Assembly: GCF_030384885.1 (NCBI RefSeq) | Contig: NZ_CP128613.1 | Length of the DNA: 64,000 bases | Origin: Escherichia coli | Lineage (GTDB): Bacteria > Pseudomonadota > Gammaproteobacteria > Enterobacterales > Enterobacteriaceae | Strand: one strand, 5' to 3' | Shown: positions 15,238 to 16,285 of the stretch, piece after piece | How positions within the stretch are numbered: the stretch's first letter is position 1 | How the letters are laid out: every line of letters starts with the position of its first letter | The notes under the pieces: model-generated | Database searches by the model: none | What the model saw: only the letters and a program-made list of their open reading frames with translations | What the model was told of the DNA's origin: nothing | Program-made: the position numbers and the translations under genes

Positions 15238-16134
15238 TTATACAAAAAGTGACAAAAAAGATCGGGTTTGATCACAGTCAGGGATCCCGGCACGCCCACC
15301 GGGACGCGTGCATTTTAACGCCGCCACACCGCTGGCAAAGCGGACGGAATCCGCTAAATCTCCACCTGTTGCCAGCGCCACCGCCAATGCGCCGTGAAAA
15401 ACATCGCCCGCACCGGTAGTATCTACCACATCAACTTTGAAAGCTGGCTGATGCTGCCGCCCGCCATTCTCCAGCCAGTCACAGCCTGCACTGCCCTGAG
15501 TAACATAGACATGTCCATTTGTGAGCGTTTGTGCCTGTTTTAGGGCACTCGCCATCTCTTTCACGCCCGTTAGCCGCGCCAGACCCGGTTCTGAAAAAGC
15601 AGCATGATCGCTTAACGCCACCAGCTCACTGATATCCTGCGGCGTAATATCACCGTCCAGCACGGTCATCACGCCCACCTGCCGCGCCAGAGTGAAGGCT
15701 TTTTTTGCGCCGTCGTGCCAGCGTACATCTGCCAGCACCACGTCCCACTGAGAGAAATCAATTTCCTCCAACCACTCTGCGTCAGGCAGCAGGTCCGGGC
15801 TGGGATAGTTAATGATGATTCGCTCGCCTTTGGCATCCACCATGATGGCGGATTGCGAAGATTTCGCCTGGTTATACCGCTTGGTGTAACGGGTGTTAAC
15901 GCCCCAGGATTCCAGCTCTGCCAGCAGGCTGTTTCCCGTGTCGTCGTCACCGACGCGACCAATAAAATCGACCTGCGCACCCAGTCTGGCCGCCGCAACT
16001 GCTGCTGTAGCCGCTGGCCCGCCGCCAACTTCCGTATAATTTTTCGCCACGTATTTACCGATCTCCGTCGGCAACCCTTCCACGTAATAGATGCGATCCA
16101 TCACGGTAATTCCTACACAAGCAACACGAATCAT
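15238..16134 (-). CDS. yihV: Sulfofructose kinase (PfkB family)
   Basis: Ribokinase-like fold motifs (GAGD, DTTGAGD); conserved position. Confidence 0.9.
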   Translation of the reverse strand: MIRVACVGITVMDRIYYVEGLPTEIGKYVAKNYTEVGGGPAATAAVAAARLGAQVDFIGRVGDDDTGNSLLAELESWGVNTRYTKRYNQAKSSQSAIMVDAKGERIIINYPSPDLLPDAEWLEEIDFSQWDVVLADVRWHDGAKKAFTLARQVGVMTVLDGDITPQDISELVALSDHAAFSEPGLARLTGVKEMASALKQAQTLTNGHVYVTQGSAGCDWLENGGRQHQPAFKVDVVDTTGAGDVFHGALAVALATGGDLADSVRFASGVAALKCTRPGGRAGIPDCDQTRSFLSLFV

Positions 16135-16184
16135 GGTCATTCCTTAAGCATTTTGGGATGCGTTCATTTTAATTTCACCAATTG

Positions 16185-16285
16185 TTTAAAAAGTGACGGC
16201 TGTCAATTTTTTGACGATAAATTACAAATACGATCAAAAACAGACAAGCAAGGCATGTCATAAATGACAAAAAGTGACATCACTG
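16185..16285. promoter_or_regulatory. Divergent yihV/yihU control region with candidate CsqR operator palindromes
   Basis: tgtcataaatgaca (16256-16269) and gtgacggctgtca (16193-16205); the AAAAGTGAC motif recurs at ~15243. Confidence 0.4.

What the first reader, a model, noticed from the sequence alone, without database searches (positions are those of the whole stretch)
15238..16285. Repeated AAAAGTGAC motif and palindromes in the yihV/yihU divergent region as candidate CsqR operators
tgtcataaatgaca and gtgacggctgtca lie between the divergent sulfoquinovose operons, and a further AAAAGTGAC copy sits near the yihV 3' end (~15243). This is consistent with DeoR-type operator half-sites. It is probably already characterised, so it is useful mainly as an anchor.
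Basis: partly seen in the sequence, partly recalled or inferred. Interest (0 to 1): 0.2.

Follow-up and report, generated by a model that had tools for sequence, protein, structure and literature searches.

The report
Candidate CsqR operator sites, sulfoquinovose genes
The repeated AAAAGTGAC words are real, conserved and sit on the three promoters that the sulfoquinovose repressor CsqR is already known to control, so this is a small refinement of a known switch.

Summary
AAAAGTGAC occurs exactly three times in the 64 kb window (15245, 16189, 16270), all on the + strand, and both palindromes are present.

The window is the E. coli sulfo-EMP locus: csqR 14419-15204(-), yihV 15238-16134(-), yihU 16302-17198(+). 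The "yihV 3' end" copy lies in the csqR promoter, about -13 to -22 from the published start site. Published gSELEX and gel shifts name this as the second CsqR-bound region.

Across 58 orthologous loci plus five more distant ones, the conserved unit is AAA-N-TGACA(AAA). It occurs:
- once in the csqR promoter;
- as an inverted pair in a 22-bp palindrome (16189-16210);
- as two direct copies 10 bp apart before yihU (16262-16279).

- The left arm of tgtcataaatgaca is confined to Escherichia.
- The 22-bp palindrome is also the best CRP-like site of the spacer, about -40 from both divergent start sites.
- The only base-resolution in vivo datum, a YihW ChIP-exo peak, maps to 16215-16255. That is between the motif copies, not on them.

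Region-level CsqR binding is already known. The half-site assignment is plausible (about 0.55) but unproven. Interest is low.

The parts
14419..15204 (-). csqR (yihW), a DeoR-family repressor of 261 aa
   Evidence: Translation. Pfam HTH_DeoR plus DeoRC. 100% protein identity to K-12 CsqR.
15235..15242 (-). csqR promoter -10 region (TATAAAAT on the - strand)
   Evidence: Published csqR start site at -27/-28 from the ATG (PMC5816610), which is window 15231/15232. Invariant in 55-58 of 58 orthologues. The -10 assignment is my inference.
15242..15259 (.). O_R: ACAAAAAGTGACAAAAAA, containing the AAAAGTGAC copy at 15245-15253. Candidate CsqR autoregulatory operator between the -10 and -35 positions of the csqR promoter, inside the last codons of yihV.
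   Evidence: Third codon positions are conserved here. The last 14 yihV codons score 0.893 against a mean of 0.585, ranking 1 of 285 windows. TGACA 15250-15254 is present in 55-58 of 58. AAA(G/C)TGACAAAAA is kept in the short cassette, Dongshaea, Edaphovirga and Limnobaculum.
15259..15280 (-). CRP site of the csqR promoter (TGTGATCAAAC... on the - strand)
   Evidence: A conserved CRP site 'at -41.5' is reported in PMC5816610. Block 15263-15279 is conserved, including third codon positions. PWM score is only 3.9 bits with my from-memory matrix.
15238..16134 (-). yihV, sulfofructose kinase
   Evidence: ORF. 98% identity to K-12 YihV. Annotated as such.
16166..16171 (-). yihV promoter -10 (TAAAAT on the - strand)
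   Evidence: Published major yihV start site at -25/-27 from the ATG, which is window 16159-16161. Invariant across orthologues. No matching -35 is found.
16189..16210 (.). P1 / O_V: the 22-bp palindrome AAAAGTGAC-GGC-TGTCAATTTT. It holds copy 1 (16189-16197, +) and an inverted AAAATTGACA (16201-16210, -). Candidate CsqR operator and/or class II CRP site at about -40 of both divergent promoters.
   Evidence: AGTGA and TGTCAA are invariant while the 3-nt spacer varies. CRP-matrix score is 9.8 bits, rank 9 of 63979. It is the best CRP-like site of the spacer in nearly all orthologues. In K. pneumoniae and L050 the arms are TTGA/TCAA, which is TGAC-type rather than GTGA-type.
16202..16215 (.).
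   Evidence: Every base is present in 54-58 of 58 orthologues.
16215..16255 (.). Projection of the published YihW (CsqR) ChIP-exo peak. It covers the ultra-conserved block 16217-16246, the yihU main -10 (TACGAT, 16229-16234) and a degenerate copy AAAAACAGACA (16236-16246).
   Evidence: The peak is 4071641-4071681 in NC_000913.2 with S/N 168, and reads were mapped to version 2. The offset of 1977 to version 3 is calibrated by the published yihV start site 4071737.
16256..16269 (.). P3: TGTCATAAATGACA. The left arm (16256-16260) is Escherichia-specific.
   Evidence: Left-arm columns match the window base in only 4-19 of 58 orthologues, whereas the right arm TGACA matches in 48-58 of 58.
16262..16279 (+). 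O_U: AAATGACAAAAAGTGACA, two direct TGACA units 10 bp apart, including copy 3 (16270-16278). It lies +23 to +40 from the main yihU start site and over the minor start sites.
   Evidence: TGACA at 16265-69 and 16275-79 is invariant. TGACA-N5-TGACA occurs 39 times in the regulatory zones and 0 times in 680 kb of flanks. The module is on the opposite strand in the short cassette.
16302..17198 (+). yihU, sulfolactaldehyde 3-reductase, first gene of yihUTS
   Evidence: NCBIfam NF012005 at 601 bits, above its cutoff.

Best explanation
The repeated word is the core of the recognition element of the DeoR-family repressor CsqR, roughly AAA-N-TGACA followed by an A-run.

It appears as three operator modules, one per CsqR-controlled promoter:
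- **O_R (15242-15259).** It lies between the -10 and -35 positions of the csqR promoter and would mediate autorepression.
- **O_V (16189-16210).** An inverted pair covering the -35 positions of the divergent yihV and yihU promoters. It overlaps, or is identical with, a CRP site.
- **O_U (16262-16279).** Two direct units one helical turn apart, downstream of the main yihU start site, acting as a roadblock or occluding the minor start sites.

Without sulfoquinovose, CsqR occupies these units and oligomerises across the spacer, shutting all three transcription units. Sulfoquinovose, SQ-glycerol or sulforhamnose bind the C-terminal DeoRC domain and release the protein. CRP then helps RNA polymerase at promoters that lack -35 hexamers.

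**Shown by others:** region-level binding, repression, effector release and the start sites. **Shown here:** non-randomness, conservation and positions. **Inferred:** that these bases are the ones CsqR contacts.
For: 1. Published region-level binding of CsqR exists for exactly these two regions, with release by SQ, SQGro and SR and cooperative oligomerisation.
2. The two bound regions share a 13-mer (P about 0.001). A 10-mer occurs twice in one and once in the other (P about 0.0002).
3. An elimination argument applies at the csqR promoter. Its only conserved blocks are the -10, the reported CRP site and O_R. O_R is held constant even at synonymous positions of yihV.
4. In most of the genomes inspected, the best match of O_R in the spacer is O_U or an arm of P1.
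5. The element persists where CsqR is only 67-72% identical (Dongshaea, Edaphovirga, Limnobaculum, the E. coli short cassette), while the recognition helix VSTQTVRRDIRKLSEQG is unchanged apart from one R-to-Y substitution in the K. pneumoniae protein.
6. The conserved letters are TGACA, not GTGA. The G varies at O_U and O_R. O_R and O_U score -2.2 and -2.3 bits as CRP sites.
7. In the short cassette the O_U repeats lie on the other strand. This suits a protein-binding site and not a -35 hexamer.
8. No TGACA unit has a properly spaced -10.
9. Motif density in the regulatory zones is 340 to 6800 times that of 680 kb of flanking DNA.
Against: - The only base-resolution in vivo datum, the YihW ChIP-exo peak at 16215-16255 (S/N 168), contains none of the three copies. 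Its edges abut P2 and P3. No separate peak was called at the csqR promoter.
- P1 is a good CRP-like site at about -40 of both promoters, and CRP binding to this spacer is published. Copy 1 therefore needs no CsqR to explain its conservation.
- The orthologous spacers are so similar that conservation alone cannot separate operator, promoter and CRP functions.
- The region is A-rich with A-tracts at a spacing of about 10 bp, which inflates resemblance between sites.
- The minor ChIP-exo peaks carry no motif.
- I could not read Shimada 2019. It may contain footprints that disagree.
Confidence: 0.55

Rival explanations
1. Split assignment. Copy 1 and its inverted partner (P1, 16189-16210) are a class II CRP site serving both divergent promoters and are not contacted by CsqR. 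Only the TGACA units at O_U and O_R, and perhaps the central block, are CsqR sites. The identity of AAAAAGTGAC at P1 with the other copies then reflects the likeness of a CRP half-site (AAAtGTGA) to the CsqR unit.
For: - P1 scores 9.8 bits with a CRP matrix, rank 9 of 63979 window positions.
- It is the best CRP-like site in nearly all 63 orthologous spacers, with a median of 9.8 bits.
- In Leminorella, Edaphovirga and Limnobaculum it is a textbook GTGA-N6-TCAC.
- Its centre (16199.5) lies 39-40 bp from the yihV start site (16159-61) and from the yihU start site (16239/40).
- Neither promoter has a -35.
- CRP binds this spacer in vitro.
- The G of GTGA is invariant at P1 (57 of 58) but not at O_U.
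Against: - The CRP matrix was rebuilt from memory.
- T16201 and G16202, inside the CRP N6 spacer, are nearly invariant (54 and 58 of 58). They complete TGTCA, the CsqR-type unit.
- In the K. pneumoniae-type locus both arms are TTGA/TCAA, which is poor for CRP, yet TGAY/GTCA is kept.
- The right arm is held as TCAA rather than drifting towards TCAC.
- The two functions are not mutually exclusive.
Confidence: 0.25
2. The true primary CsqR operator is the ultra-conserved central block (about 16215-16255), as the ChIP-exo peak says. The AAAAGTGAC/TGACA units are sites for something else (CRP half-sites, another regulator, curvature elements) or only auxiliary contacts.
For: - The ChIP-exo peak has S/N 168 and covers exactly 16215-16255.
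- Every base of 16217-16246 is about 90% or more conserved across 58 orthologues, more than a promoter spacer normally is.
- The block contains four phased 10-mers with (A/T)CA cores and a degenerate copy AAAAACAGACA.
- There is 13 of 18 identity between 16223-16240 and O_R (D1).
Against: - The central block also holds the yihU main -10 (TACGAT) and start site, so RNA polymerase and promoter constraints explain part of its conservation.
- Its likeness to the csqR promoter is not kept in distant orthologues, where AAAAACAGACA is lost (Dongshaea, Leminorella, Limnobaculum).
- CsqR also binds the csqR promoter, which has no copy of the central block.
- The peak edges abut the motif clusters. That fits a complex anchored on both sides and cross-linked in the middle.
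Confidence: 0.15
3. The words are chance repeats in A-rich promoter DNA, or are -35 hexamers (TTGACA-like) of the several mapped promoters.
For: - TGACA is five-sixths of the sigma-70 -35 consensus.
- Several yihU start sites were mapped.
- Palindromes of this size are not rare here (P 0.34).
- The bare 9-mer count is only marginal (5 of 100 shuffles).
Against: - The shared-word tests give P of 0.001 and 0.0002.
- No TGACA unit has a -10 at 16-18 bp.
- The units are conserved at synonymous codon positions.
- They flip strand in the short cassette.
- They are essentially absent from 680 kb of flanking DNA.
Confidence: 0.04

Closest known systems
CsqR (YihW) repression of yihUTS, yihV and csqR in E. 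coli K-12 (Shimada et al. 2019 as cited in PMC8006165 and PMC8249747; Kaznadzey et al. 2018, PMC5816610; PMC12608037)
   Same: The genes, spacer and protein are the same: the window's CsqR is 100% identical to K-12 CsqR, the spacer 98% and the csqR promoter 100%. The two bound regions are the same, as is the inducer logic.
   Different: The held literature stops at fragment level and names no operator sequence. The AAA-N-TGACA unit, its three modules and its conservation are derived here and remain untested at the bench.
Operators of other DeoR-family sugar repressors (GlpR, AgaR, UlaR, DeoR of E. coli), from general knowledge of the family and not tested here
   Same: Several short repeats, direct and inverted, are spread over a divergent promoter region and are bound cooperatively by an oligomer that a sugar derivative releases. 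The regulator also autoregulates.
   Different: The unit sequence (TGACA with A-runs) is unlike the GlpR, DeoR or AgaR units as I recall them. The oligomeric state of CsqR on DNA is unknown.
Class II CRP-dependent promoters with an overlapping local repressor
   Same: P1 fits the 22-bp CRP geometry at about -40 of two promoters that lack -35 hexamers. CRP binding to the fragment is published.
   Different: A single CRP-like palindrome would serve two divergent class II promoters and at the same time be built from two copies of the local repressor's unit. Whether both proteins use it is untested.

Membership tests
CsqR (DeoR-family) operator | A cognate DeoR-type regulator (HTH_DeoR plus DeoRC) is encoded next to the sites | tested here: met
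   Pfam PF08220 and PF00455 on window 14419-15204(-). 100% identity to K-12 CsqR.
CsqR (DeoR-family) operator | Sites lie in the DNA fragments that CsqR binds in vitro and in vivo | tested here: met
   The copies lie in the yihU/V spacer and upstream of csqR, the two fragments bound in gSELEX and gel shifts. The ChIP-exo peak is inside the same spacer.
CsqR (DeoR-family) operator | The very bases are protected or contacted by CsqR | tested here: inconclusive
   No footprint is available in the held papers. The ChIP-exo peak at 16215-16255 lies between the copies, 5 bp from P1 and 7 bp from O_U, and contains none of them.
CsqR (DeoR-family) operator | The same element recurs at every regulated promoter and is conserved with the regulator | tested here: met
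   The unit is found at all three promoters in 58 orthologous loci and in 5 loci with 67-72% CsqR identity. The recognition helix is invariant apart from one R-to-Y substitution in the K. pneumoniae protein.
CsqR (DeoR-family) operator | Position compatible with repression (overlapping -35/-10, or downstream of the start site) | tested here: met
   O_R lies at -13 to -22 of PcsqR. Copy 1 lies at -29 to -37 of PyihV. O_U lies at +23 to +40 of the main PyihU. All positions use the published start sites.
CsqR (DeoR-family) operator | Binding relieved by sulfoquinovose and related effectors | not testable with these tools
   Published for whole fragments only.
CRP binding site (class II) | A 22-bp dyad TGTGA-N6-TCACA with a good matrix score | tested here: inconclusive
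   P1 matches 7 of 10 core positions and scores 9.8 bits, rank 9 of 63979, using a matrix rebuilt from memory. The copies at 15245 and 16270 score -2.2 and -2.3 bits, so they fail.
CRP binding site (class II) | Centre near -41.5 of a promoter lacking a -35 | tested here: met
   This applies to P1 only. Its centre at 16199.5 is about 39-40 bp from both published start sites. No -35/-10 pair is found.
sigma-70 -35 hexamers | A TTGACA-like hexamer with a TAnnnT -10 placed 16-18 bp downstream | tested here: not met
   The consensus scan finds 0 promoter-like pairs in 15150-16350. The units change strand in the short cassette.

The most novel reading that the evidence does not exclude
One 22-bp palindrome (16189-16210) is built from two CsqR units and is at the same time the CRP site. 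It would sit at about -40 of two back-to-back class II promoters. CsqR and CRP would then compete for the same bases. CsqR bound there and at the yihU-proximal repeats 72 bp away would wrap the intrinsically A-tract-phased, ultra-conserved yihU core promoter between them. That would explain why ChIP-exo cross-links in the middle rather than on the repeats.
Probability: 0.25. Interest if true: 0.35.

Novelty: already known. Interest (0 to 1): 0.2.

Why it matters
Sulfoquinovose is one of the most abundant organosulfur compounds, and the yih cluster is the model sulfoglycolysis pathway. Its repressor, inducers and bound fragments are published.

A defined operator unit would add three practical things:
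- It would let people predict CsqR regulons in other genomes.
- It would help explain why the short cassette of strains such as Nissle 1917 does not respond to SQ.
- It would support SQ-responsive reporter design.

It would not change the picture of how the system works. The analysis also gives a usable anchor: it fixes gene boundaries, start sites and the ChIP-exo peak in window coordinates.

Tried and rejected
- **Published footprints.** Shimada 2019 is not held. Searches for CsqR with 'footprint', 'ChIP-seq' or 'motif' found no operator sequence. The 2024 and 2025 specialist papers contain none. The motif logo in Gao 2021, Supplementary Figure 4, is an image and cannot be read.
- **Minor ChIP-exo peaks as an independent test.** No AAAnTGACA lies within 100 bp of the ssuE, glpA, ansP or yhcC peaks, so this is uninformative. 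The region fetched for the yafO peak was wrong because I applied an offset that does not apply before 257 kb.
- **-35 hexamer reading.** Rejected.
- **Structured RNA in the leaders.** No Rfam match at E up to 1.
- **Palindromes as evidence in themselves.** They are not beyond chance.
- **Likeness between the central block and O_R (13 of 18).** It is not kept in distant orthologues, so I treat it as an effect of A-richness.
- **Extra copies at other cassette promoters (yihS/R, yihQ, yihPO).** None found. This agrees with only two gSELEX regions.
- The csqR ATG is at 15204, not 15205.

Full report
**What is in the window**

ORF listing and translation give four genes:
- csqR (yihW) at 14419-15204 on the - strand;
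- yihV at 15238-16134 on the - strand;
- yihU at 16302-17198 on the + strand;
- yihT, yihS and the rest of the cluster downstream.

CsqR carries HTH_DeoR and DeoRC domains and is 100% identical in protein to K-12 CsqR. YihU hits the sulfolactaldehyde 3-reductase equivalog at 601 bits.

The window is not K-12. The stretch 15150-16350 is 94.3% identical to K-12, and at least 99% identical in only 15 of 5426 complete E. coli genomes. Despite that, the 167-bp yihU/V spacer (16135-16301) is 98% identical to K-12. The first roughly 90 bp upstream of csqR are 100% identical. That is already a shallow phylogenetic footprint.

**The observation**

AAAAGTGAC occurs exactly three times in 64 kb, at 15245, 16189 and 16270, all on the + strand. 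Shuffles expect 0.64, and 5 of 100 reach three.
- The three copies share the 10-mer AAAAAGTGAC.
- The first and third share the 13-mer ACAAAAAGTGACA.
- An inverted one-mismatch copy, AAAATTGAC(A), lies at 16201-16210.
- tgtcataaatgaca is at 16256-16269 and gtgacggctgtca at 16193-16205.

The bare 9-mer count is marginal, so I asked a fairer question. How long a word do the spacer and the 96 bp upstream of csqR share in dinucleotide shuffles? A 13-mer appears in 0.1% of 5000 shuffles. A 10-mer present twice in one region and once in the other appears in 0.02%. TGACA/TGTCA is 16-fold enriched in the spacer, P about 0.004. Perfect short palindromes are not unusual in this A/T-rich DNA, P 0.34. The repeats are real. 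The palindromes carry weight only if they are conserved.

**Where the copies sit**

Kaznadzey et al. 2018 (PMC5816610) mapped these start sites:
- yihV: -25/-27 from its ATG, given as 4071737 in U00096.2;
- yihU: a main start site at -62/-63 from its ATG, plus several others;
- csqR: -27/-28 from its ATG.

In window coordinates these are 16159-16161, 16239/16240 and 15231/15232.

Relative to those start sites:
- Copy 1 (16189-16197) covers -29 to -37 of the yihV promoter. That promoter's -10 is TAAAAT (reverse complement of 16166-16171).
- The 15245 copy is inside the last codons of yihV, but it lies at -13 to -22 of the csqR promoter, just upstream of the -10 (TATAAAAT, 15235-15242).
- Copy 3 (16270-16278) lies +31 to +39 from the main yihU start site and over two minor ones.

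A consensus scan finds no -35/-10 pair anywhere in 15150-16350. These promoters therefore lack -35 hexamers, and the TGACA units are not -35 elements.

**What is published**

CsqR binds the yihU/V spacer and the region upstream of csqR, and it represses all three units. SQ, SQ-glycerol and sulforhamnose release it, and it forms large cooperative complexes on the spacer (PMC8006165, PMC8249747, PMC10991401, PMC12608037). The primary paper, Shimada 2019, is not held. None of the held papers, including one from October 2025, states an operator sequence. CRP binds the same fragments, and a conserved CRP site at the csqR promoter is reported.

The one base-resolution dataset is the YihW ChIP-exo of Gao et al. 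2021. It gives a single strong peak (S/N 168) at 4071641-4071681 of NC_000913.2. The version 2 to version 3 offset of 1977 is fixed by the published yihV start-site coordinate together with the RefSeq annotation. The peak projects to window 16215-16255. This lies between the motif copies, not on them. Its left edge coincides with the end of the palindrome GTCAATTTTTTGAC (16202-16215). Its right edge is one base before TGTCA at 16256.

**Comparative evidence**

A scan of one genome per species returned 67 loci. Sixty-four encode CsqR proteins 74-99% identical to the window's; the other three are remote homologues (31-35%). The arrangement of divergent yihU and yihV-csqR is kept wherever all three genes were found. 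I analysed 58 distinct spacer and csqR-upstream pairs.

In the spacer:
- A block from 16165 to 16246 is almost invariant.
- AGTGA (16192-96) and TGTCAATTTTTTGAC (16201-15) are fixed, while the three bases between them vary.
- TGACA at 16265-69 and 16275-79 is fixed.
- G16274 is G in only 22 of 58 (A in 32).
- The left arm of tgtcataaatgaca matches in only 4-19 of 58.

Upstream of csqR, 15235-15261 and 15263-15279 are conserved, including third codon positions of yihV. The last 14 codons of yihV have third-position conservation of 0.893 against a gene mean of 0.585. That is the highest of 285 sliding windows.

The csqR promoter thus has three conserved blocks: the -10, the reported CRP site and ACAAAAAGTGACAAAAAAGA. 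Since CsqR binds this fragment and autoregulates, the third block is its most likely target. This elimination step is the strongest argument for the motif.

More distant loci agree. These are the E. coli short cassette (CsqR 71%), Dongshaea marina (Aeromonadales, 67-68%), Edaphovirga and Limnobaculum.
- All four keep AAA(G/C)TGACAAAAA upstream of csqR.
- Three of the four keep AAA-N-TGACA on the right arm of the 22-bp palindrome. The short cassette has CGACA there.
- All have TGACA- or GAACA-type repeats before yihU.
- The recognition helix VSTQTVRRDIRKLSEQG is unchanged apart from one R-to-Y substitution in the K. pneumoniae protein.

In the short cassette the yihU-proximal repeats are on the opposite strand. 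That suits a protein site and not a promoter element. In most of the genomes inspected, the best match of the csqR-promoter block within the spacer is the yihU-proximal site or an arm of the palindrome. Within these loci the unit is 340 to 6800 times denser in the two regulatory zones than in 680 kb of flanks. These counts are not phylogenetically independent.

**The CRP complication**

AAAAGTGACGGCTGTCAATTTT (16189-16210) has CRP geometry. The evidence for a CRP reading is as follows:
- With a CRP matrix rebuilt from classic sites that I recalled from memory, it scores 9.8 bits, rank 9 of 63979 positions.
- It is the best CRP-like site in nearly all 63 orthologous spacers.
- In three genera it is a clean GTGA-N6-TCAC.
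- Its centre is 39-40 bp from both divergent start sites.

Copy 1 can therefore be explained without CsqR.

Against a pure CRP reading:
- T16201 and G16202, inside the CRP spacer, are nearly invariant (54 and 58 of 58) and complete TGTCA.
- The K. pneumoniae-type locus keeps TTGA/TCAA arms, which are poor for CRP.
- The other two copies score -2.2 and -2.3 bits as CRP sites.

The two functions may overlap.

**Verdict**

- At base level the best reading is a CsqR unit AAA-N-TGACA(AAA) arranged as three modules. I put this at 0.55.
- The main rivals are that P1 is CRP-only (0.25) and that the central ChIP-exo block is the real operator (0.15).
- Chance or -35 hexamers is disfavoured (0.04).
- No Rfam family matches the region.

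This is an ordinary regulatory region of a known system. It is useful as an anchor, and the unresolved disagreement between motif and ChIP-exo peak could be settled by a single footprinting experiment.

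Noticed in passing
window 20439-21314 (+): A 291-aa TauE/SafE-family membrane protein gene (PF01925) lies between yihR and yihQ. K-12 has only a 198-bp gap there. At least 80% of 20300-21500 is found in 1283 of 5426 complete E. coli genomes. It is a plausible sulfonate or sulfite exporter embedded in the sulfoquinovose cluster.
   Followed up: partly
window 15150-16350: The window comes from a minority E. coli lineage. This stretch is at least 99% identical in only 15 of 5426 genomes and 94.3% identical to K-12. Even so, the spacer and csqR promoter are 98-100% identical to K-12.
   Followed up: partly
window 16217-16246: ATAAATTACAAATACGATCAAAAACAGACA is about 90% or more conserved at every base across 58 orthologues and coincides with the YihW ChIP-exo peak. 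The yihU -10 (TACGAT) explains only part of this. The block has A-tracts phased at about 10 bp.
   Followed up: partly
L069 6225-6275 (E. coli O104:H4, short yih cassette): The yihU-proximal TGACA repeats are present but on the opposite strand (TGTCA three times). Copy 1 is degraded to ATTAGTGATG. This may bear on the published lack of SQ response of short cassettes.
   Followed up: partly
L055 (885-bp contig labelled Bacillus coahuilensis m4-4): It encodes residues 52-261 of CsqR at 100% identity to E. coli. This is almost certainly contamination of that assembly.
   Followed up: no
window 9151-9160 (-): A lone AAAAATGACA lies just upstream of the ORF at 9206-11119, outside the yih cluster. 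It is probably chance.
   Followed up: no
K-12 NC_000913.2 2350653-2350658 (L075): The second-strongest YihW ChIP-exo peak (S/N 13.7) sits just before the glpA start codon, where the related DeoR-family repressor GlpR is known to act (from my own knowledge). No AAAnTGACA is nearby.
   Followed up: partly
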